Below, piece by piece: positions 14,692 through 60,366 of a stretch of DNA of 64,000 nt (positions within the stretch are counted from its first letter, which is position 1; each line of letters begins with the position of its first letter). The DNA lies in assembly GCF_963506605.1 (NCBI RefSeq), contig NC_083287.1, positions 50,406,001 to 50,470,000 of the forward strand, given 5' to 3'. This DNA comes from Zootoca vivipara. Lineage: Eukaryota. The position numbers and the translations under genes are program-made. The notes under the pieces are model-generated. The model searched no databases. It was not told where the DNA came from and saw nothing but the letters and a program-made list of their open reading frames with translations.

Positions 14692-14895
<204 letters not shown>

Positions 14896-15020
14896 TAGAG
14901 CAGCCTTCGCCAACTGGTGCCTTCAACATGTGCCTTCAACTACAACTTCAGTGGGGCTGGTGGGAGTTGTAGACCAAAACTGGTGTAGAGTTTTGTTCTT
15001 CATTAAAAATAAAATAAAAA

Positions 15021-15435
15021 ATTGACTGTTAAAGGCCATGTTTCTGTTTCAGATACGTGGAATATGCTGAGAGCATTTTGCAGGTTTAAAAATGATGCGT
15101 CTTATTTACAGCTTTAGTTGTGATTTTATTTCTCTTGTTTCCTTATCCAAAAGTAAACAAAATGATTTCATTTGCTGAGTTGCGCTTAAGCTGGCAGGAA
15201 TGCTACTGAAATTTCTCTTGTGACTAACTAAGGCAGTGAAACATCGTTTAGTTTTAGCTATAAAAAAAAAACAAGCTGGGGAACAATGACATAGAAAAAC
15301 TCATGCAAATAAGAAGATTAATTTATCATTTAAGGCGTAAGTAAATGTGCTTGTTACACATTTATGTGCTTGTTATTTGTGCTTGTTACAGTTTCTGCTT
15401 TTTCATTTTGTAGAAGAATATGCCAAAAAAAATTT
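15021..15435 (+). repeat. left copy of ~405-bp direct repeat (L1 target-site duplication), including the duplicated WDR48 exon 17 acceptor
   Basis: matches 19620-20024 except 3 substitutions and 3 short indels (A10/A7, extra AAG, A8/A4). Confidence 0.95.
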
Positions 15436-18400
15436 TTTTGAAAAAAAATATTGATATCACAAAAAATCAACAAAATACAAACCAATAAAACCAATAAAAC
15501 CATGCCATCGCTATACAAATATCGTGTTGCGTCGTTTCCCCTGTTCTTTCCCTCCCTCATGTCCCTCCCTTGACACTTCTCATCCTGTTTTGAGCTTATC
15601 CCTATGTTCCACATATTATTTACATACCATAATTCATTCAGTTGTACGTATATATACATATATATACTGCACTAAGGTAATTACATATTATATCGATCCT
15701 TTGTTCATGACAGAGTCGTTAGACATCTGAGATAATGTTCAGTCTTTCCAATTTATTCCTAATGTAATTAATAAACGATTTCCAAATTTTAATAGTTTCC
15801 TCTGAGTTCATTCCTCTGATTTCTTCATAGTTTTTCGCTAAATTATAATAGTTAAACAATTTTATTTGCCATTCTTCTTTACTTGGGATTCCAGGGGTTT
15901 TCCAGTTCTTTGCGACTTATAACCTAGCCGCTGCTACAGCATAGCTGACTACACATCTATCATTTGATTGGATGTCTTCTGGTATCATTCCCAGGAGGAA
16001 CATTTCCGGCCTTTTTTTAAAAGAGTATTTCAACATTTTCTTTAATTCCTTATATAGCATTTTCCAAAACTCTCTAATTACACTACAATTCCACCACATG
16101 TGGATAAATGATCCGACTTCCTTTTTGCATCTCCAACATAAATTACTGGCCCCTGGGTATATATTAGACATTTTAAGTGGGGTCAAGTACCATCTATTCT
16201 GCATCTTCAAGATGTTCTCCTTCAAATCATAATTGGGGGGTAAAATTCAAATCTTTTTTCCATAAATTTTCCCATTTCTGTACTGGGATAGGTTTTCCCA
16301 GGTCTTGACCCCACTTAATCATGAAATCCTTTGTCATCTCTTCTTCTGTCCTCCATTTTAAAATTATCTGATATAAATTTTTTATATGTTTGCTCTTATT
16401 CACCAATAGTATCTCCTCCAATTTTGACATTTCCTTATCGAATCCCAATTTCCTATCAATTTGCAATCTTTGGTTTATTTGAAAATATTGCAGCCAGGTG
16501 GTCAGGTGATGTTTTATTTCAGAGTATTCTTTTAATTTTAAAATTCTCTCTTTTTCTTCCAATAAAGTTTTATATGTGGGCCAATTACTATCCATATTAG
16601 TCCTTTTAACAGCAACTAGTTCTAAAGGTGAGACCCACCAAGGGGTCTTAGGCTCAAAAAACCTTTTATATTTCTGCCACGCTAAATACAGGGATTTCCT
16701 AATTATGTTAAACATAAAGATGTTCTTTTTTTCTATTTTATCTTTCATCAGATAACGGTGCCAGCCGAATGCCAGCCCTTGGCCCTCCAAGTCTAGAAGA
16801 TCTGTGTTCTTAAGTTCCATCCAGTCTTTGATCCATGCAATAGCCGCCGCATTGTGATAGATCTCGAGATCTGGGAGTCCAAAGCCTCCCCTATCTCTAT
16901 GGTCTATCATGATTGTGTATCTTACCCTCGGTCTTTTCCCATCCCAGATAAACTTCACAATGTCTTTTTTCCATTCATTGAAGATTTTTTCTTTCCCCAA
17001 AATCGGTAAATTTTGAAATAGATAATTCATTTTAGAGACGACAGACATCTTAATCAATGAAATTCGGCCCATTAATGATAATTTCAATTTTCTCCATACT
17101 TCCAAATTTGCCTTTATCTTTTTCCAAATTTCTCTATAGTTTTCCTGTACCAAATCTATCCCTTTTATTGTTGTTTGGATGCCCAAATATTTCAATCTTT
17201 TGTCAATTTTTAAACCTGTTTTTTCTTGAAGTTCCTGCTTTTCTTTAGCTTCCAAATTTTTCACCAACATTTTTGTTTTCTCATAATTTATTTTCAAACC
17301 CGCTAATTTGCCATATTCATTTATCTTACTAATTGCTGAAGGTATACTTTGAATTGGATCTTCGGTGGTTATAATTATATTGTCTGCGAAAGCCTTTACT
17401 TTGAATTTTTTATTGCCAATTACTATTCCTTTAATACTATCCTCTTCTCTCAGATTTTTTAATAGAATTTCCAATGTTAATATGAAAAGAATAGGTGACA
17501 AGGGGCAGCCTTGTCTGGTGCCCCTCTCGATGTTTATCCTGTCGGTTAATCTTCCATTTATTAATATCCTGGCTTCTTGGACTTTATAGATTGCTTTTAT
17601 TGCTTCCTCCATTTGTTCTCCCAAATTCAGATTTTCTATTGTTTTTATCATAAATATCCGGGAGACTCTGTCGAAGGCCTTCTCCGCATCAATAGATAGG
17701 AGAGCTGCCCGCTTATCTCTCCTATTCTCAAGGCATTCCAGAATATTTACAATGTTTCTAATGTTGTCCTTGGCGGACCTTCCCTTTACAAATCCGACTT
17801 GATCCTTATGTATTAATTCTTCTAAAATCTTCTAAAATTCTTCTAAAATTTTTGTGAAGATTTTATAATCACAGTTTAAAAGAGAGATCGGTCTATAATT
17901 AGGTGAATCTGTGTCTGTTTGTGCTTTGGGTATTAATGTAATTTGTGCTTCTGTCCAAGATTTAGGAACCATTCCCTTTGTCAGTATTTTATTCATTAAG
18001 TCTTTGAGCGGAATTAATACTATTTCCTGGAATTCTTTATAATATTCTATAGGGAGCCCATCTAGACCAGGGGTTTTCCCTTTTTTCATAGATTTTATTG
18101 ATTCTATTATTTCAATTGATGTAATTTCCTTATTTAAGAATGTCATTTTTTCTGGTGGGATTTGTGGTAATTGATATTTTTTAAAGAATTCATCAATTTC
18201 TTGGCTACATACCTCTTCTTTTTGATATAGGGTTTCATAAAATTTATGGAATATTTTCATAATTTCCTCAGTCTTGTCAAAAAATTTCCCCTCTGACTTA
18301 ATTCTAGTTATTATTCTTTCATTTTTCCTCTTTTTGATCTGCCACATCAATAATTTACTCGGTTTATTTGCCCACTCAAAATATTTCCAGAATTTTAATT

Positions 18401-19619
18401 TCCGTTCAATCTCTTGATCAATTGTCCTTTCGAATTCCGTTCTCAATAATCTTAATTCTTGTTCAATGTTCTTATCATAATTTTTATAAAGGGATCTTTC
18501 TTTTCTCTTTATTTCTTGCAATAGATTTTCTTTCCTTAATTCCTCGGCTTTCCTGATTCTGGCTGTTTGCTCTATGAAATACCCACGCATAAAAGCCTTC
18601 CCCGCATCCCACACTATATTTGGGTCCACCTCACCATTATTATTTAGCTTGAAATATTCTTTAAGTTTTTTAATTGCCTCTTGTTTTACATTTATGTTTT
18701 TCAACATAAAAACATTTAATCTCCAATTTCTTTCTTTTTCTTCTTCCTTTAATATTAAAGTCATTGAGTTATGATCCGATAAAGTTCGGGGGTTAATTTC
18801 TGCCTTTTGAATTCTTAACGATAATTCCTTTGATATCCAAATCATGTCTATTCTGCTTGTGGTCTGATGTCTTGCTGAAATATGCGTAAATTCTTTTTTA
18901 ATGGGATTTTTATATCTCCAAGCATCTAATAAATTAAGATTTTTACTCAAATACATAAATTTCTTAGGTAATTTCATTTTATATTTCTTCATATTCCTTC
19001 CGCTTTTATCAAATTCTGGGTCGATTATTCCATTCATATCCCCCATTATTATAATCTTGCTTTCAACATAATTCATTAATTGAGATTCTAATTTTCCTAA
19101 GAAGGCTGTTTTACTCCCATTTGGTGCGTAGAGACCCACCCAGACCCACTCTTCACCTTCAATGATTGTCTTTATCATCACTATTCTACCTTCATTATTA
19201 TTCTGGTTTCCATTTCTTTTTAACATAAAATACGACACCTCTCTTCTTTTTTGCATCTGCCGTCACGAATTCCATTCCTAATTTTTCATTCTTTAATACC
19301 CTCAGATGTTTTTTATTTTTGTGTGTCTCTTGAAGACAAATTACATCATAATTTTGTTTTTTTAAGAAATGTCCCACCCTGTTCCGGTTTTTTTATTGTT
19401 TAAACCATTTATATTCCATGATATAATTCTTAGACTCATATTTATTTTATTGAAATTTTTTTAAAAAGGGAAAGAAAGAAAAAGAGGAAAAGGAGAAAGA
19501 AAGAAAAGAAAAAAAGGAAGAAAAAAACCACAAAAAGAAAAATTGTTAAAAACAAAATCAGATTAATCTCTATGCTAAGCAGAACCAAGGAAACAAATCT
19601 TAATTTCCTGTATTTGTGC
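15433..19619 (-). mobile_element. L1 (LINE-1) retrotransposon, 5'-truncated in the inter-ORF spacer; full-length but disrupted ORF2 (~19439-15719)
   Basis: APE endonuclease (MSLRIISWNINGL, IMGDMN, SRIDMIW, SDHN), RT (YRPISLLNCDYKI, GTRQGCPLSP, FADN, KYLG), CCHC knuckle CWRC..HMWWNC; several frameshifts and stops; short poly(A) at 15433-15439. Confidence 0.95.
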
Positions 19620-20024
19620 ATTGACTGTTAAAGGCCATGTTTCTGTTTCAGATACGTGGAATATGCTGAGAGCATTTTGCAGGTTTAAAAATGATGCGTC
19701 TTATTTACAGCTTTAGTTGTGATTTTATTTCTCTTGTTTCCTTATCCAAAAGTAAACAAAATGATTCCATTTGCTGAGTTGCGCTTAAGCTGGCAGGAAT
19801 GCTACTGAAATTTCTCTTGTGACTAACTAAGGCAGTGAAACATCGTTTAGTTTTAGCTATAAAAAAACAAGCTGGGGAACAATGACATAGAAAAACTCAT
19901 GCAAATAAGATTAATTCATCATTTAAGGCGTAAGTAAATGTGCTTGTTACACATTTATGTGCTTGTTATTTGTGCTTGTTACAGTTTCTGCTTTTTTATT
20001 TTGTAGAAGAATATGCCAAAATTT
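19620..20024 (+). repeat. right copy of ~405-bp direct repeat (contains the functional exon 17 acceptor)
   Basis: ATTGACTGTTAAAGGCC...ATATGCCAAAATTT, ending at an L1 endonuclease-like TTT/AA site. Confidence 0.95.
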
Positions 20025-20083
20025 AATAAGATTCCTTTCTACCTCCAACCTCATTCCTCTTCTGGAGCAAAAACGTTAAAGAA
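20007..20083 (+). CDS. WDR48: WDR48 exon 17 (intact copy)
   Basis: tgtag|AAG AAT ATG..AA|gtaagt; KNMPKFNKIPFYLQPHSSSGAKTLK. Confidence 0.95.
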
Positions 20084-20197: not shown

Positions 20198-20390
20198 GGA
20201 TCGACTGTCAGCCAGTGACATGTTGCAAGTTAGGAAGGTGATGGAGCATGTTTATGAAAAAATAATAAATCTGGACAATGAATCTCAGACAACTAGCTCT
20301 TCCAATAATGAAAAGGCCGGGGAACAAGAAAAAGAGGAGGATATTGCTGTTTTAGCAGAAGAGAAAATTGAACTTCTGTGCCAGGACCAG
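20198..20390 (+). CDS. WDR48: WDR48 exon 18
   Basis: cacag|..CAG|gtatcc; [29 protein letters not shown]...IELLCQDQ. Confidence 0.95.
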
Positions 20391-32933: not shown

Positions 32934-33137
32934 CAGCACATGCCACACCTGCTCACTGGCTCTCTGGAAGCTACAGAACCTCACACTGGCTCCCAGGAGT
33001 CCCTGCCCTCCCCACATGTTGCTGGGGACCACCTCCACTTCACGCACTTTCATCGTTTTAATGTTGTACACCTCCAGTTTCACAGCCTTCTCAACATTGG
33101 CTTTCAGCAGATCTTTTAAGATGTCCCCTTCTTTGTT
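32934..33137 (-). CDS. GORASP1: GORASP1 exon 3
   Basis: (T)18 gag|AAC..CTG|gtaagt; [17 protein letters not shown]...ASEQVWHVL. Confidence 0.94.
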
Positions 33138-35007
33138 CTCAAAAAAAAAAAAAAAAAAGGAAGGAAAGGAAATGTAAGAGGTTTGCTTCTGGGCAGTAGT
33201 CAACAGACCGCTAGGTTGCCAACAACAACAACAACAAAATAAATTGTTAATTTTTAAAATGATTTTATAAGTGGTTTTCCCAGCCACACAGGGCAGCTCC
33301 CAGCAGAATAGCAAAATCACTATAAAACACCAAACATTAAAAACTTCCCTAAACAGGGCTGAAACCAGTTTAAAGATTCACAGAGGCTATGTGGAGGGAC
33401 AGGCCAGCAGCTGCAGAAATTGAGGTTGAAGTATCAACTTGCCTTCCATAAAGTGGATATTTCTTAATACCTTATGGAACTGACAGCCACAAGATGTGCT
33501 ATGGCCACTAACTTAAGATGAATTTATTTTATTAATTCATTAAACATATCTCCTGCCTGCTTTTCCAAAAGAATGCACTGGAGGAGGAGAACAGCAATAA
33601 AAATAAATTCAGCACTTCCTGAGGCAATAAATTCTGTTAAGTTTATTGGAAAGTACTTTTTAAAAGAACACCTCCAACTGAAAACAAAGGTCCCATATAG
33701 CTAAGGCAATTTACCAGTACCTCTGAATACCAGGTTCTGGGGATTACAACAGGAGGAGGGCTGTGGCCTTTATGCCCCATTTGTGAGCTTTTAGTCATGC
33801 ACCGTTTAGGACATTTAACAATAGAGGTACTTATTTTAAAGCAAATCCCTCTGAAATAAACAGGAGTTGCTTCTAATCAAGCATGATTAGGTCATAAAAG
33901 AAATGTGCAAAAAAATAAGCACCACCATTTGCCATGCCTTTATCCAATGAAACATAAAGTATGTTTTGTAGCCATAATGTATGTGGGCCAAGCAGCTTCA
34001 AACATGTTAATTATTTACAGGCTGATATTTGAACAAGTGTTGAAAACTAGTTTTGTGACATGGTGACAGGTCAACACCCTCCTTCCCTTCCCTCCACAGT
34101 GCAACACACCCACCAGCTCTGATGAACTAGAGATGTTTGCAGCACAGATCCCAACTTGAGCAAGTGTACCCAGCCATTTTCTAGAGGAGAAGTTGGGACA
34201 TATCTGATTTCGGAAGAAATCTCCTTTCCAATTCAGACCCCAATATGGCCTGTCCGTTACATCCACGACCAGAACTTCCAAGACAAACAGACATATGTAA
34301 AGGATGGAATTCTGCTACTCGGATTTTTTTAAAGAAACCTAATCACAGAACCACCCTTAATCTCATGCAAACTCACAAGCACAGGTTAGTAAAAAAACCT
34401 GAAACCTTTGTTCATACAGGACACTCACAGCCAGACATTTCAGATGCTTCCATGGCCAACAGTGGGAAGGACCTGCTTGCAAGTTCGCACTCTGCCATTC
34501 TGAGTCACAGGTACTATGACCAACCAAGCCCTGCATAGGGGCAGCCTCCCTTATGACTAAACTTCCAAGCAAATGAACCTACAACAGTGTACAGTCCTTC
34601 TATGTTTTTAGAAGGGCCTCCCAAGAGGGAAACATGAGCAGCTGGGCAGAACCGCAGCCCATATCTCCCAAGTGGTCTGTGCCTATCCGGCAGTTCTACT
34701 TGCTGACTCCTAGTTTTCATTTATTAATTCATTAGTTCCACATATGCACCAATTTTCTTCCACCACAGAGTTCAAGGCAATCTTGAATACATGCTATCAT
34801 GCTTTTCCTCTTCTTTTGCTTTTTTTTTGGGGGGGGGGCAGATATCTGCCATCCAAGCACTGAGCAGATCTACTTAGCTTAAGTGGCAGCTTCATGTACC
34901 TTCAGGTCATGCTTTGGGATGCATTTATTTATAGTACATCAGCAACATACTTACCTGCTAGAGCTCAGCATTAAAAAAAAACCAGTGACTTTTGTTTAGC
35001 TACTTAC

Positions 35008-36852: not shown

Positions 36853-37147
36853 GTTGTTATTGTTGTTGTTTAGTCGTTTAGTTATGTCCGACTCTTTGTG
36901 ACCCCATGGACCAGAGCACGCCAGGCACGCTTGCCTTCCACTGCCTCCCGCAGTTTGGTCACTCATGTTGGTAGCTTTGAGAACACTATCCAACCATCTC
37001 GTCCTCTGTTGTCCCCTTCTCCTTGTGCCCTCAATCTTTCCCAGCATCAGGGTCTTTTCCAGGGAGTCTTCTCATGAGGGGGCCAAAGTATTGGAGCCTC
37101 AGCTTCAGGATCTGACCTTCCAGTGAGCACTCAGGACTGATTTCCTT
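36853..37147 (-). mobile_element. RTE-BovB LINE 3' fragment
   Basis: (CAA)n tail, encodes MLGKIEGTRRRGQQRTRWLD; homologous to 38770-39066. Confidence 0.9.
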
Positions 37148-37272
37148 TAATTCTCATTAAAACCAATGGGACTTAAGCCACAACCAACCCATCACATTGA
37201 TTTTAATAAGGCCTATGTGAAATTAATGTGGCCCAACCCCTTTCTATTATATGTATTGTATGTATTTATATC

Positions 37273-39066
37273 AGGAAACTGAATGCAGATTTCCAAAAAA
37301 CAGCAAGGAGAGACAAAAGGGTCTTCTTAAATGAGCAATGCAAAGAAATAGAGGAAAACAATAGAATGGGGAAAACCAGAGATCTGTTCAAGAAAATTGG
37401 AGATATGAAAGGAACATTTCGTACAAAGATTACCATAATCAAGGACAAAAGTGGTAAGGACCTAACAGAAGCAGAAGACATCAAGAAGAGGTGGCAAGAA
37501 TACACAGAGGAATTATACCAGAAAGATATGGAGGTCTCGTACACCCCAGGTAGTGTGGTTGCTGACCTTGAGCCAGACATCTTGGAGAGTGAAGTCAAAT
37601 GGGCCTTAGAAAGCACTGCTAATAACAAGGCCAGTGGAAGCGATGATATTCCAGCTGAACTATTTAAAATTTTAAAAGATGATGCTGTTAAGGTGCTACA
37701 CCCAATATGCCAGCAAGTTTGGAAAACTCAGCAATGGCCAGAGGATTGGAGAAGATCAGTCTACATCTCAATTCCAAAGAAGGGCAGTGCTAAAGAATGC
37801 TCCAACTACCGCACAATTGCGCTCATTTCACACGCTAGCAAGGTTATGCTTAAAATTCTACAAGGCAGGCTTAGGCAGTATGTGGACCGAGAACTCCCAG
37901 AAGTGCAAGCTGGATTTCGAAAGGGCAGAGGAACCAGAGACCAAATAGCAAACATGCGCTGGATTATGGAGAAAGCTAGAGAGTTCCAGAAAAACGTCTA
38001 CTTCTGCTTCATTGACTATGCAAAAGCCTTTGACTGTGTAGACCACAGCAAACTTGGGCAAGTTCTTAAAGAAATGGGAGTGCCTGATCACCTTATCTGA
38101 CTCCTGAGAAATCTCTATGTGGGACAAGAAGCTACAGTTAAAACTGGATATGGAACAACTGATTGGTTCAAAATTGGGAAAGGAGTACGACAAGGTTGTA
38201 TATTGTCTCCCTGCTTATTTAACTTATATGCAGAATTCATCATGCGAAAGGCTGGACTAGATGAATCCCAAGCCGGAATTAAGATTGCCGGAAGAAATAT
38301 CAACAACCTCAGATATGCAGATGACACAACCTTGATGGCAGAAAGCGAGGAGGAATTAAAGAACCTTTTAATGAGGGTGAAAGAGGAGAGCGCAAAATAT
38401 GGTCTGAAGCTCAACATCAAAAAAACCAAGATCATGGCCACTGGTCCCATCACCTCCTGGCAAATAGAAGGGGAAGAAATGGAGGCAGTGAGAGATTTTA
38501 CTTTCTTGGGTCACGAAATTAAAAGACGCCTGCTTCCTGGGAGAAAAGCAATGACAAACCTAGACAGCATCTTAAAAAGCAGAGACATCACCTTGCCGAC
38601 AAAGGTCCGTATAGTTAAAGCTATGGTTTCCCCAGTGGTGATGTATGGAAGTGAGAGCTGGACCATAAAGAAGGCTGATCGCCGAAGAATTGATGCTTTT
38701 GAATTATGGTGCTGGAGGAGACTCTTGAGAGTCCCATGGACTGCAAGAAGATCAAACCTATCCATTCTTAAGGAAATCAGCCCTGGGTGCTCCCTGGAAG
38801 GACAGATCGTGAAGCTGAGGCTCCAATACTTTGGCCACCTCATGAGAAGAGAAGAATCCTTGGAAAAGACCCTGATGTTGGGAAAGATTGAGGGCACTAG
38901 GAGAAGGGGACGACAGAGGACAAGATGGTTGGACAGTGTTCTCGAAGCTACGAACATGAGTTTGACCAAACTGCGGGAGGCAGTGCGAGACAGGAGTGCC
39001 TGGCGTGCTATGGTCCATGGGGTCACGAAGAGTCGGACACGACTAAACGACTAAACAACAACAACA
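37273..39066 (+). mobile_element. RTE-BovB LINE, 5'-truncated (RT domain to 3' end)
   Basis: RT motifs NYRTIALISH, QAGFRKGRGT, DYAKAFD, GVRQGCILSP, YADD; C-terminus WRAMVHGVTKSRTRLND; (CAA)n tail; 13-bp TSD ATGTATTTATATC at 37260-37272 and 39067-39079; one TGA at 38098. Confidence 0.95.
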
Positions 39067-40454
39067 ATGTATTTATATCTCATTTTTCTATGTTAAACAT
39101 TCATTCAAACTGGCTTACAGATTTTGTTTTAAGGTATAGTGAATGGTAAGAGAAGAATCAGAATGTACCATTTTGAAGTAGTAAAAGCAGCTGGAAGGTT
39201 AATATATACAGTGCTTCCAAACAGGGACTTAATACTGCAAATGAGTAGTGGAGAGATATTCCAAATGGCATGTTGGCAACAAAGAGTTGTTGTTTTTTTA
39301 ATACCAGAATTTCCCTGTGAAGGGGGGATACAGGTTGGCAGTTTGATACAAACAATGTTGTGTGGACACTGCAAAGCAAAAAAAGAAAACTTGCATGCAT
39401 GAGGAGCACTAATCCCACAATGAACACCCACATTTAGAGATTTTACTTTAAGAATGGCCACTGGAGCAACAGTGTTTTCAGCAGACTTTTAAAAAACATA
39501 GGGGCAAGGCTTAGCTCCTTTGGGAATATACATTCAGTTAGAATTATGCAATGCACATCTGCATGAAGTTATTTTTAACAGTTTATTTTTATCCAGAGCT
39601 CTTAGTTTCCAAAGGAACCAAATAGTTTTGCACACAAACGGAAGAGGAAAGAGCATCATAACTGGATAGTCAGGCTATGTACCAAGGGGTGCCATTGGGC
39701 AAAGATAATTAACTATGGAAGAGAGTGCTGGACAAGGAAATAGCACTTCATCCCTTGACTAGTGAAAGCATTTTCCTATTCCCCATTTTTAAAATGTTTT
39801 AAAGGTTCCCTCCAGAAAAAAGAGACCCTCTTAAGAATATTGGGGGGCAGGGGGAGGGGCAAAGGAAGCATGGCTTTTTTGCAGTCCTCAGATGAGGACT
39901 AGACCATGTGAAAAATGAATGTAAGATTTTAGGTGCAGCTCATTCATTTTCAGCTTTGTATTCTAGTTATAAAAAAGTATGTCTAGACATTCTGTTGTTG
40001 TGTCCATAACCTAGGTTTAAGGTGCCATTTAGCTCCTAGCTTTCACATCTCAGTTTCTAACACTTCTCACAACTCAAGATACACCCATCAATTACTAGAG
40101 ATAAAAGCACATGTTTCTTTTACACAAGACAACATGTGTGGAATTCACATGGAATTCAAGAAATGCATGGCCATCTTAATTGGGGGATGTTTTAATGTTG
40201 CGCTAGTTGTATTTTTAGTGCAGTTATTGCATTGCTTTTATTCCGTGAGCCAGAGACCTTTTTTAATGTTATAGGCCAGCCTATAACTAATGGAAATCAG
40301 TAAACAATTTCACCACTACAAGAGACAGCTATGGCTGATGACTTTACAGGGGTATTGGGTGGGTGGGGGAGTGCTCAAGAGGATTCATCTGTCAATGGCT
40401 ACCAACCACAATGGCTACATGAAGCCTCCACCTTAGTAACCACAGAAAGGAAAA

Positions 40455-48135: not shown

Positions 48136-48265
48136 CTTGGGGTATTGCAAATCCAACTCCAAAATCCTTTAACTTGATCCTATGCAGAGCTAGGTGCACT
48201 TTAAGCCCATTGAAATCAGTGGTCATATCTGTCACTAACTCTGTGTCAAAACAAAATTTAAAAAT

Positions 48266-48345
48266 TCCTTCCAGTATCACCTTAGAGACCAACTAAGTTT
48301 GTCTTTGGTATGAGCTTCCGTGTGCATGTATACTTCTTCAGATGC
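48266..48345 (-). mobile_element. Penelope-like element fragment with degenerate hammerhead motif
   Basis: homologous to 49338-49418 and 60287-60366; core GAAA mutated to GGAA. Confidence 0.7.
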
Positions 48346-48593
48346 AGTGGTGACAGCATGTGTACTCCATACTCGTTTTTTAAAAAGGAAACTTCTGCCA
48401 TAGGCATCTCTCACTGGGCAGCTGTCTTCTGACTACAAAACTGTATTGGATTGATTTTGCTGGCAAAATCCAGGATAGGTGAATGTGATGTGACTCCATT
48501 ATGAACTGTCCACAGTGTTGGCATACATCCACTCAAGTGCCTATTCCAAATGATATGTATTTTTTCTCTCACCCCCCTTCCCACTTTCTGTAG

Positions 48594-48751: not shown

Positions 48752-49337
48752 GTAGGAGGTGATTTTCAGCAATGGAAGAAACTGAGACGTGCCATTTCAT
48801 TTGTAAACAGGTTGGCCAACCTCTATATAGGAAGCTGCCTCTCACTGAGTCCTGTATTACTGACTAGCACGGTGACTTTGGATTCGCAGGCACATACTTG
48901 GTTGTGACCCTGCAGCCTGGGTATGAATCTTTAGACTCCTGCCTGGTGGGTGGTTTGATGTTTCCCTTAGACTCCACCAGGGGCTTATCTGCTAGCACTC
49001 AGGCTGGAACCCACCCTGAGGACCCTTCTGGAGAATCCTCTGGAAGCAGCTTCACCAGGGAGTCTCAGGATCTCCATGGCTGGCAACAGGAGACATACCT
49101 GCTTCTCCATGTCTTTGGCTAATAGGAGAGATGGCAGTGGTCAGGGATGATGAGAGCTGTCAGTTAAAGCATCTGTTTGGGAGCAGTTTGGGAAGATAGG
49201 AGTCTTTCCTAGTCCTAGAGATGTCAGAGATTGAACCTGGAATGTTTTACATGCAAAGCTTGTGCTCCTCCATTGACCTTTAGTTCTTTCCCTATAAAGT
49301 GGCTATTTAAAATATAATCATAATTCTTCTTATGGAT

Positions 49338-49418
49338 TCCTTCAGTAGCACCTTAAAGACCAACTAAGTTTTTATTTTGGTATGAGCTTTCGTGTGCATG
49401 CACACTTCTTCAGATACC
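49338..49418 (-). mobile_element. 81-bp Penelope-like element fragment
   Basis: 13-bp TSD TCTTCTTATGGAT at 49325-49337 and 49419-49431; identical to 60287-60366. Confidence 0.8.
49379..49418 (-). ncRNA. minimal type I hammerhead ribozyme motif (PLE-type)
   Basis: minus strand GGUAU-CUGAAGA-A-GUGUG(CAUG)CACAC-GAAA-GC-UC^AUACC. Confidence 0.7.
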
Positions 49419-49715
49419 TCTTCTTATGGATGTTTAACATAATGGCCAGTAGGTGTCCCCAGTACCTACACAGTTACAGACTGTGTTGGCTACTGTGTTC
49501 TGTGCCTTCCTGGTGCTCCTGAGTCTTCTAAATCTAACTCTCCACTTTCAGCAGATAAGTCACAAAATCCATTTTTTTTGTCTTTCTAAACCTTAAATTT
49601 GTTTTCTCCTTTATCTGAGTGTGACTCTGTAGCAATAAGTATGTAGCTTTTAATTAATAATAGATTTTCTTTCTTTCAATAATAGGCCTAATTGAAATTA
49701 AAATAGCATAAATAA

Positions 49716-51994
49716 TTTTATGATAAAAATTTTGGAAAATATGGAGGTTGGGCAAGGGTTCATTAATGGTATAAATGCAATCTATTCAGAACAAAAAGCG
49801 AAAATCATTGTGAGCAATGTGGTATCAGAGGAAAGTAGAATTGAAAAAGGTACCAGGCAAGGGTGCCCACCTTCCCCTCTAGTCTTTATAACTGTCTTGG
49901 AGGTCTTGCTGAATATGATAAGGAAAGACAAAGAGGTGAAAGGTATAGGAGTGGGATCAAAACAGTATAAATTAAAAGCCTTCACTGATGACTTAGTATT
50001 AACTTTACAGGACCCGGAGACCAGTGCAACTAAAGCACTGGAAATAATTCAGGAGTTCGGACAGCTTGCAGGGTTCAAACTGAATAAAGCAAAAACCAAA
50101 GTATTGGATAAAAATTTAACACCAGAAGAAATAAATAGTTTACAGGATGCCACAGGTTTGACGTTTGTTAAAAAGCTGAAATACCTGGGAGTAAATATGA
50201 CTGGGAAGAATGTAAATTTGTTTTAAAATAATTATGAAAAATTGTGGAACGAAATTAAGAGAGATTTGGAGACATGGTCTAATTTGAAATTATCTTTGAT
50301 GGGCCGAATACCTGTGATAAAAATGAATGTATTGCCAAACATGTTGTTTTTGTTTCAAGCATTACCAATTATTGATAATCTAGGGTGTTTTAAAGTCTGG
50401 CATAAGGTGTTATCAAGATTTATCTGGCAGGGGGAAAAACCAAGAATTAAATACAAATTGTTAAGGGACACTAAAGATAGAGGAGGTTTTTCCCTACCAG
50501 ATTTAAAGTTATATTTTGAAGCAGCAGCCTTTTACTGGATGAAAGAATGGTTCCTACTCGACAATACCGACGTATTAGATCTAGAAGGTCATGACAATGC
50601 ATTTGGATGGCATGCATATTTGTGGTATGATAAGATTAAGGTTCACAAAGGTTTTAAATGTTATATTATCAGAAAATCATTATATAATGTGTGGAATAGA
50701 TATAAGGATTTGTTAGAAAGGAGAACACCCAGGTGGATTTCACCTTTAGAAGCTAAGGCACATAAAAAATTGAATATGGAAACCAAGTGGTTAAAGATAA
50801 AGATATATTGGTGGTTGAAGAATATAATTTTAAGTTAAAAACATACGAACAGTTGAAGAATAATGTAAATGATTGGTTACAATATCATCAAATAAATGAA
50901 ATGTTCAAAATGAATAAAATAGGTTTTCAAACAAAAAAGTCTAAATTGGAGACGGAACTGTTAGAGTCTAAAACAAAGAATCTTTCAAAGATGTATAATT
51001 TATTATTGGAATGGCATACTAAAGATGAACAAACGAAATCTGTTGTGGTTGATTGGGCAAAAGATGTGGGTCATAATATCATGATGGAGGATTGGGAAAG
51101 GTTATGGAAGAAGAATATAAAGTTAACCGCTTGTAATGCCTTAAGAGAAAATATGATGAAAATGATGTATAGATGGTACCTTACACCAGTAAAACTAGCT
51201 AAGATTTATCACAAGCATGATAATAAATGTTGGAAATGCAAGAACGCAGAGGGAACCTTTTACCATATGTGGTGGACCTGCCCCCAAGTAAAGAACGTCT
51301 GGGAAAAGATTTATAATGAAATGAAAAAGGTGTTGAAAAGCATCTTTATTAAGAAACCAGAAGCTTTTTTACTTGGAATAGTCAGAGAGGAACTACCAAA
51401 AAAAGATATTACGCTTTTTCTGTATGCCACAACAGCAGCGAGGATTTTACTAACTAAGAATTGGAAGAGTGAAGACCTACATACAGTGGATGAATGGCAG
51501 ATGAAGATGATCGAATTTATGGAACTGGCTGAATTGACAAGGAGACTTTGTGACCAGAGAGAAGAGTTGGTGGAAGAAGATTGGAAGAAATTCAAAGTTT
51601 AAGAAATAATTGCAATATTGGAAATGTGTAATATAAGATTTGGAAGTACAGGGAGGTTGTAGAGGAGGAGGATTTGTAGAAGTATTGTAGTATATTAAGA
51701 TTTAGATATAGATATAAGTGTTAAATAAGAATTGAAATGCTGTTAAGGAATTAAAAAGAGGTGAAATTTGTTAGTTAAGGTAAAAATAAGATGATTGAAG
51801 TATGATATAGAAATTACTAAGGATGATATACAATGAAACGCAGCAAGGAGGGACATGAGGAAGTAAAAAATGTCAGGACACATGCCTTTTTTGTTTTTTG
51901 TTTGTATTTTTGTGTTTTATGTGAATTTTTTGTATTGTATTTTTGTGTTTTATATGGTTTTTTCAGTTTTATAACATCAAATACATTTGGAAGT
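49716..51994 (+). mobile_element. L1 retrotransposon, 5'-truncated (RT C-terminal half, CCHC knuckle, 3' UTR)
   Basis: GTRQGCPPSP, FTDD, KYLG, CWKC..HMWWTC; 16-bp TSD AAAATAGCATAAATAA at 49700-49715 and 51995-52010 preceded by TT/AAAA. Confidence 0.93.
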
Positions 51995-60240: not shown

Positions 60241-60366
60241 CAGGTAGGTAGCCGTGTTGGTCTGGATCGAAGTAAAATAAAAAAATTCCTTCAGTAGCAC
60301 CTTAAAGACCAACTAAGTTTTTATTTTGGTATGAGCTTTCGTGTGCATGCACACTTCTTCAGATAC
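60241..60366 (-). mobile_element. Penelope-like element fragment
   Basis: caggtaggtagccgtgttggtctg...gtagcaccttaaagaccaac...atgagctttcgtg..ttcttcagatac, the PLE terminal-repeat signature. Confidence 0.8.
60329..60366 (-). ncRNA. minimal type I hammerhead ribozyme motif (PLE-type)
   Basis: minus strand GUAU-CUGAAGA-A-GUGUG(CAUG)CACAC-GAAA-GC-UC^AUAC. Confidence 0.7.

What the first reader, a model, noticed from the sequence alone, without database searches (positions are those of the whole stretch)
15414..15676. Decoy exon-17 acceptor creates a ready-made alternative last exon (UAF1 lacking the C-terminal SUMO-like domain) or poison exon
Seen: the upstream copy keeps the pyrimidine tract and ttttgtag acceptor (15413|15414), 4.6 kb ahead of the real one. 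Spliced from exon 16 it reads in frame KNMPKKIFLKKNIDITKNQQNTNQ-stop. The stop overlaps the first of two tandem AATAAA (15484, 15493), followed by GU/U-rich sequence at ~15520-15550, which is a complete poly(A)-site layout from antisense L1 3' UTR. A good donor AAG|gtaatt at 15676 could instead define a 263-nt PTC-containing cassette. Established: exon 17 starts at about residue 557 of 677, at the start of UAF1's C-terminal SUMO-like domain (SLD2), which binds SIM-like motifs of FANCI/ATAD5/RAD51AP1; the WD40 propeller binds USP1/12/46. Inference: a lineage-specific isoform that binds DUBs but cannot target substrates, or an NMD-based dosage control.
Basis: partly seen in the sequence, partly recalled or inferred. 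Interest (0 to 1): 0.8.

Follow-up and report, generated by a model that had tools for sequence, protein, structure and literature searches.

The report
Jumping gene duplicated a splice site
A jumping gene (L1) sits between two 400-base copies of an intron end in the DNA-repair gene WDR48; it likely landed inside an exon and copied the splice signal as it inserted, which would have spared the gene, and a small, partly blind RNA sample shows no use of the leftover upstream signal.

Summary
The decoy belongs to a 408/402-nt direct repeat (97.8%) that flanks a 4.2-kb antisense, 5'-truncated, decayed L1. The repeat holds 393 nt of intron end plus 15 nt of exon 17, and it starts at a TT/AAA site like the family's targets. 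Of 40 related L1 loci, 27 have 11-20-nt target-site duplications and none has a long one. Best reading: L1 inserted inside exon 17, and an unusually long duplication rebuilt the acceptor downstream, leaving a skipped decoy. In 62 reads from three RNA runs (6% of each), no joint or loose end was listed at 15414 or 15676, and reads crossing the decoy look unspliced. One run's coverage stops just after the AATAAA pair. That test is shallow and can drop exon-bearing reads. The antisense AATAAA is a family trait (30 of 40). A regulated truncated isoform or NMD switch is unsupported but not excluded.

The parts
14757..14844 (+). WDR48 exon 16 (88 nt; number recalled from the human gene), ends in phase 0
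15021..15428 (+). Upstream copy of the long duplication: 393 nt of intron end, decoy acceptor and the first 15 nt of exon 17
15412..15413 (+). Decoy acceptor AG; 23-mer differs from the true one at one base
15414..15488 (+). Predicted decoy reading frame: 5 exon-17 codons, 19 new codons, stop
   Evidence: no spliced reads listed
15429..15447 (-). L1 3' junction: short A-run remnant; L1's own poly(A) signal is damaged; runs X21 and X22 carry another allele at 15433-15434
15484..15498 (+). Tandem AATAAA from the antisense L1 3' UTR (family-wide trait)
15674..15682 (+). Cryptic donor AAG|gtaatt; no use seen
15432..19619 (-). 5'-truncated L1: part of the inter-ORF spacer, ORF2 (endonuclease and reverse transcriptase) with frameshifts and a stop, 3' UTR
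19620..20021 (+). Downstream copy of the long duplication, carrying the acceptor of the intact exon 17
20007..20083 (+). Intact exon 17 (77 nt, residues 557-582), donor GAA|gtaagt; TTT/AA nick-like site at 20022-20026
20198..20390 (+). Exon 18, 63 of 64 residues identical to human WDR48 583-646

Best explanation
An antisense L1 is flanked by two near-identical 0.4-kb copies of the WDR48 intron 16 end and exon 17 start; it likely inserted 15-18 bases inside exon 17 by target-primed reverse transcription with an unusually long target-site duplication, which would have rebuilt a complete acceptor and exon 17 downstream and left the upstream copy as a mostly skipped decoy. Shown: the repeat, the L1, the intact downstream exons and short duplications in relatives. 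Inferred: first nick at TTT/AA (20022-20026 in the intact copy), second nick about 405 bases away, fill-in of the gap. An ordinary 11-20-nt duplication at this spot would have split exon 17, so only a duplication reaching past the branch region could leave a working allele. Also inferred: the spliceosome picks the distal acceptor by exon definition, because it is paired with a 77-nt exon and a strong donor, while the decoy is followed by antisense L1 sequence that may bind repressors.
For: The repeat borders the L1 exactly on both sides. The element has endonuclease and RT domains and ends where relatives end. The target reads TT/AAAT on the L1 strand, like sites of relatives such as CTTT/AAAAT and TGTT/AAAAT. 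At most 1 nt of 5' microhomology. 27 of 40 related loci have 11-20-nt duplications and 0 of 40 a long one. The 3' junction is real: 11 reads in X21 and 2 in X22, from one study, cross it with a non-reference allele. Exons 17-19 are intact, and exon 18 is 63/64 identical to human. No decoy or cassette junction is listed in 62 reads. Long duplications by LINEs are known but rare: 1 of 25 ZfL2-2 insertions in chicken DT40 cells had 1228 bp (PMC2666801, passages); somatic human L1 duplications over 40 bp, one of 92 bp (PMC4398972, passages). MATR3 and PTBP1 repress splicing and 3' processing in and around antisense L1 in human cells (PMC6108849, passages).
Against: No empty allele or outgroup was seen: the related-species run gave only two spurious 18-21-nt matches. 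The junction allele in X21 and X22 blurs the A-tail and nick-site reading by a few bases. The copies differ less (3 substitutions in 402) than the L1's decay predicts (1.2-1.5% private changes; Poisson P 0.004 at 1.41%, 0.07 at 0.9%), which needs gene conversion or a partly decayed source. Pyrimidine-tetramer density is high over the L1 as a whole (5.0 per 100 nt versus 2.0-3.8 in four other gene stretches) but low in the first 260 nt after the decoy (0-2.3). In X21, sense depth falls from 14.9 to 0 by 15508, which may mean some RNA ends at the L1 signal.
Confidence: 0.72

Rival explanations
1. One reading: the decoy is used at a meaningful level, as an alternative last exon giving a UAF1 without its C-terminal SUMO-like domain, or as a 263-nt poison exon that tunes WDR48 dose through NMD.
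For: The two acceptors are identical but for one base. An in-frame stop, two AATAAA and a GU-rich element follow; the cryptic donor matches 8 of 11 U1 positions. X21 coverage ends at about 15508. WDR48 1-634 cannot associate with FANCI (PMC4391933, passages), so such a protein would differ in function.
Against: No loose end at 15414 or 15676, no joints, no step in depth at 15414 or 15676 in three runs. Antisense AATAAA is a trait of the L1 family, not a locus adaptation; AATAAA also occurs 9 times in the first 14.7 kb of the window and 5 times in the L1.
Confidence: 0.12
2. The L1's antisense poly(A) signal ends a small share of transcripts without using the decoy acceptor: exon 16 reads on into the intron (stop at 14896-14898) and the RNA is cleaved near 15510, mildly lowering full-length WDR48.
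For: In X21, reads with the upstream-copy allele peak at 15316-15443 (about 11 or more, against 0-3 in unique intron on either side), look unspliced, and none covers 15508-15539. The read-through frame closes after 17 intron codons. Premature polyadenylation by intronic L1 is a described effect (PMC2176070, passages).
Against: The 11 reads start at only about 4 places. No poly(A) loose end or end pile-up was listed. X22 reads run through 15508; X23 has none there. The stretch 15460-15499 is 14 of 20 A, so oligo-dT mispriming gives the same picture. X21 has no coverage at 14996-15059, which such an RNA would span.
Confidence: 0.2
3. The duplication was not made by the second nick of retrotransposition: a 0.4-kb tandem duplication or repair event came separately, and the L1 was captured at its junction (endonuclease-independent insertion or repair synthesis).
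For: The length is 20-35 times that of relatives. The L1's poly(A) signal is damaged and the A-run is short. Copy divergence is lower than L1 decay.
Against: The L1 ends at its natural 3' end, at a TT/AAA site, and fills the junction exactly; separate events meeting to the base are unlikely. The splicing outcome would be the same.
Confidence: 0.12
4. The repeat is an assembly artefact joining a filled and an empty haplotype.
For: The 5' junction was not checked with reads.
Against: The 3' junction is crossed by reads in two runs of one study. Without the downstream copy, the filled allele would have a broken exon 17.
Confidence: 0.03

Closest known systems
Long target-site duplications of LINE insertions (engineered L1 in HeLa, cited in PMC4398972; ZfL2-2 in DT40, PMC2666801; somatic L1 in neurons, PMC4398972)
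   Same: 5'-truncated LINE, endonuclease-like site, direct repeat far longer than 20 nt
   Different: Those are cell-culture or somatic events. This one is inherited, old enough to have decayed about 1-1.5%, present in several samples, and it copies a whole splice acceptor.
Intron gain by transposons whose target-site duplication supplies a splice site (Introners, PMC9860276, search listing only)
   Same: A duplication made at insertion lets the element be spliced out of an exon
   Different: No new intron arises: the existing intron grows by 4.6 kb and its own acceptor is copied. The element is an L1, and this looks like a one-off accident rather than a family strategy (0 of 40 relatives).
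L1-derived cryptic exons and poly(A) sites repressed by MATR3 and PTBP1 (PMC6108849); exonization of antisense L1 (PMC2176070)
   Same: Antisense intronic L1 supplying a poly(A) signal and a donor
   Different: The acceptor is a full-strength copy of the gene's own, not a weak L1-derived site. Repression was not tested in this species.
Poison exons and alternative last exons under regulation (recalled, e.g. in SR-protein genes)
   Same: The predicted cassette meets the 50-55-nt NMD rule (recalled rule)
   Different: No inclusion seen, no conservation shown, recent transposon origin.

Membership tests
L1-clade non-LTR retrotransposon | ORF2 with N-terminal apurinic-type endonuclease and reverse transcriptase | tested here: met
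   Exo_endo_phos_2 E 1.8e-5 (below curated cut-off) and RVT_1 E 7.9e-29; 79-84% amino-acid identity to intact 1247-aa ORF2s of three relatives
L1-clade non-LTR retrotransposon | Two ORFs in full-length copies, frequent 5' truncation, A-rich tail | tested here: met
   Relatives have a 357-359-aa ORF before ORF2 and element lengths of 6.3-6.6 kb; this copy starts in the spacer
L1-clade non-LTR retrotransposon | Placement in the L1 clade by an RT tree with named references | not tested
   Clade name rests on architecture and recall; no tree was built
TPRT insertion with target-site duplication | Direct repeat abutting both ends of the element | tested here: met
   15021-15428 and 19620-20021
TPRT insertion with target-site duplication | TT/AAAA-like endonuclease site and poly(A) tail | tested here: inconclusive
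   TT/AAAT site and A7 in the reference, but another allele at the junction in X21 and X22 and a damaged poly(A) signal
TPRT insertion with target-site duplication | Empty site with a single copy in an allele or sister species | tested here: inconclusive
   The related-species run gave no real match in the laid stretch
Alternative last exon | Spliced reads from the upstream exon into the acceptor | tested here: inconclusive
   None listed in 62 reads, but exon-bearing reads may be dropped and exon 16 was not in the stretch
Alternative last exon | Poly(A)-tailed ends 10-30 nt after AATAAA | tested here: inconclusive
   X21 depth reaches 0 at 15508; no tail or end pile-up listed; X22 reads through
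Poison (NMD) cassette exon | Stop more than 50-55 nt before the next junction | tested here: met
   Stop at 15486-15488, donor at 15676: 188 nt
Poison (NMD) cassette exon | Inclusion reads with both junctions | tested here: not met
   No loose end or depth step at 15676 in 3 of 3 RNA runs, at depth 0-5; low power, and NMD would deplete such RNA
Poison (NMD) cassette exon | Rise on NMD inhibition; conservation | not testable with these tools
   Needs an experiment and related genomes

The most novel reading that the evidence does not exclude
An L1 that hit a coding exon of an essential gene rescued its own host allele by a 0.4-kb target-site duplication, spread in the species, and now supplies a tissue-restricted UAF1 lacking the C-terminal SUMO-like domain (by the decoy acceptor or by the L1 poly(A) site), or an NMD dial on WDR48 dose. 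The self-rescue half alone is likely (about 0.7); the probability given is for the whole, including a regulated product.
Probability: 0.08. Interest if true: 0.75.

Novelty: new variant of a known kind. Interest (0 to 1): 0.45.

Why it matters
It shows a route by which an insertion into a coding exon can survive: the duplication copies the whole 3' splice signal, so the element ends up intronic. It is also a natural test of exon definition, since two acceptors alike over about 390 bases compete 4.6 kb apart and the far one must win for the gene to work. Long duplications are missed by pipelines that look for 5-30-nt repeats (inference), so inherited cases may be undercounted. Mouse Uaf1 loss is early-embryonic lethal (title only, in the reference list of PMC10999478), which would make this rescue necessary. 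A regulated short UAF1 would matter more but has no support yet.

Tried and rejected
Run search: no RNA holder listed; not used as evidence on expression. A protein search with the 24-residue decoy peptide was too short for the tool, so whether an annotated isoform ends this way is open. No splice-site scoring model (MaxEntScan, SpliceAI) was available; only consensus matches were counted, and the exon 18 donor row was offset by one base and dropped. A branch-point scan found no strong consensus in either copy; the copies are identical there. Rejected: a family habit of long duplications (0 of 40; loci were picked from the top-scored rows, and at least three share a flank and are not independent). 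Rejected as unsupported: a near-identical source element (best relatives 90-92%; only 37 of 2185 candidates scored). Literature: searches found no paper on this locus or on an exonic LINE insertion rescued by a long duplication; the library lacks most subscription papers. Three primary papers asked for by id were not held, so the exact start of SLD2 is recalled, bounded only by PMC4391933 (after residue 535). Supplements were not read.

Full report
Setting. The gene on the + strand is WDR48 (UAF1): the exon at 20198-20390 matches human residues 583-646 at 63 of 64, and a GRASP55/65-domain exon follows on the other strand. Exon numbers follow the recalled human gene.

Observation. All coordinates in the finding check out: acceptor at 15413|15414, 24 codons then a stop inside AATAAA 15484, second AATAAA 15493, donor at 15676. 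The true exon 17 is 20007-20083 and starts at residue 557. The two acceptors differ by one base in 23.

What it is part of. The decoy is the end of a direct repeat, 15021-15428 and 19620-20021, 97.8% alike, with 3 substitutions and 2 three-base indels. It has two matches in the genome, both here. Between the copies lies a 4188-nt element on the - strand with endonuclease and reverse-transcriptase domains. Against three intact 1247-residue ORF2s from the same genome it has deletions of 1, 11, 6, 3 and 3 bases and a 1-base insertion, plus a stop at 17832-17834. It starts in the spacer before ORF2, with at most 1 nt of microhomology, and ends where relatives end. Its nearest scored relatives are 90-92% alike.

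The duplication is unusual for the family. I fetched 40 related loci of 10 kb from the top rows of two searches. 25 had exact 11-20-nt duplications (median 16), 2 more had 13 and 16 nt, 13 had none called, and none had a long repeat at both ends. At least three loci share a flank and are not independent. Many targets read TT/AAAA-like, and the intact copy here reads TT/AAAT on the L1 strand. This fits a first nick 18 nt into exon 17 and a second nick about 405 bases away (inferred). Long duplications are described but rare: 1 of 25 insertions in wild-type DT40 cells, 1228 bp (PMC2666801, passages); over 40 bp in some somatic L1 insertions, and longer on average than in polymorphic ones (PMC4398972, passages).

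Why the gene survived (inferred). A 16-nt duplication at this site would have left exon 17 split by 4.2 kb. The long one copied 393 nt of intron end, so a complete acceptor precedes an intact exon downstream. Mouse Uaf1 loss is embryonic lethal by the title of a cited paper (paper not held), so survival bias would favour exactly this outcome.

Is it real and shared? Reads of two runs from one study cross the 3' junction (11 in X21, 2 in X22) and carry a different allele at 15433-15434 that keeps the decoy frame. The 5' junction was not checked.

Is the decoy used? laid about 6% of each of three RNA runs on 14900-15859: 43, 12 and 7 reads. No joints and no begin or end pile-ups were listed. The only loose end in these runs is 3 reads at 15428 that continue into true exon 17, that is unspliced RNA of the downstream copy; 5 of X21's 8 partly laid reads and X23's 2 are not itemised. 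In X21, 11 of 19 sense reads at 15404 have the upstream allele and 11 cover 15433, so crossing reads appear unspliced. In X22, depth passes 15508 and 15676 without a step. Against my reading: X21 sense depth falls 14.9, 8.4, 3.6, 0 across 15412-15539, as expected if RNA ended after the AATAAA pair. These reads start at about 4 places, the stretch is A-rich, and the other runs do not repeat the pattern. The test is weak. Exons 16 and 17 were outside the stretch, the tool may drop reads with conserved exon sequence, gene expression level is unknown, and X22 and X23 show opposite-strand reads that may be DNA.

The poly(A) layout is not special to this site. 30 of 40 relatives have an antisense AATAAA at that place and 18 have two or more. 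Antisense L1 in human introns is bound by MATR3 and PTBP1, which repress splicing and 3' processing in and around it (PMC6108849, passages). Pyrimidine tetramers are denser in this L1 (5.0 per 100 nt) than in four other stretches of the gene (2.0-3.8), but not in the first 260 nt after the decoy, so this mechanism is only a lead.

The predicted protein. Decoy use would give 561 native residues plus 19 new ones. WDR48 1-634 is reported unable to bind FANCI, and SLD2 lies after residue 535 (PMC4391933, passages). Loss of the SLDs only reduced ATAD5 binding, and USP1 binding was unaffected by the point mutations tested (PMC11348035, passages). The SLDs help recruit USP1 to substrates (PMC8024992, passage). 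So a short form would be impaired, not blind.

An unexplained point. The L1 differs at 28 of 1984 conserved first and second codon positions (1.41%), or 19 of 1241 after removing changes shared with its nearest relative. Two copies of that age should differ at about 7-11 sites, not 3 (P 0.07-0.004). In X21, 0 of 19 reads show the downstream alleles at 15311 and 15324, although 8 of 19 do at 15404. Gene conversion between the copies, or segregating variation, would fit; lineage changes in the source element may inflate the L1 figure.

Verdict. Observation confirmed; interpretation partly supported. The solid result is an inherited L1 with a 0.4-kb flanking duplication that likely rescued an exonic insertion. 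Searches found no report of this locus or of such a rescue, within a library that lacks most subscription papers. The scan held no note on this genome and one related note elsewhere. A regulated isoform remains possible at about 0.1. Interest 0.45.

Noticed in passing
window 15021-15428 and 19620-20021: The two copies are more alike than the L1's decay predicts, and run X21 lacks two of the downstream-copy alleles; possible gene conversion or polymorphism.
   Followed up: partly
window 15425-15439: Runs X21 and X22 differ from the reference at 15433 and 15434 in all 13 covering reads; allele or reference error; frame unchanged.
   Followed up: partly
window 15181, 15184, 15260, 15264, 15508: Further variants in reads that match neither reference copy.
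   Followed up: no
window 36857-39067: An RT-bearing LINE (RTE/BovB-like by recall) at about 37210-39054 with a 298-nt inverted repeat, 89% alike, at 36857-37147 and 38770-39067.
   Followed up: no
window 49700-51600 (+): An older L1-like ORF2 fragment, 65-67% alike to the intronic L1.
   Followed up: no
window 32940-33200 (-): Exon with a GRASP55/65 PDZ-like domain, likely GORASP1, the neighbour of WDR48 in human by recall.
   Followed up: partly
G000:C18:5.3-7.1 Mb (L004, L005, L039, L040): At least eight related L1 copies in under 2 Mb, several with the same 3' flank: a segmental array rather than separate insertions.
   Followed up: no
L006, L010, L011: Full-length L1 copies with open ORF1 and 1247-residue ORF2 and 14-16-nt duplications: the family is probably still young in this genome.
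   Followed up: partly
window 15002-15013: ATTAAA and AATAAA in the ancestral intron just before the upstream copy, another possible intronic poly(A) signal.
   Followed up: no
window 49336-49417 and 60285-60366: An 82-nt perfect repeat 11 kb apart, with a third 84-89% copy near 48240-48347.
   Followed up: no
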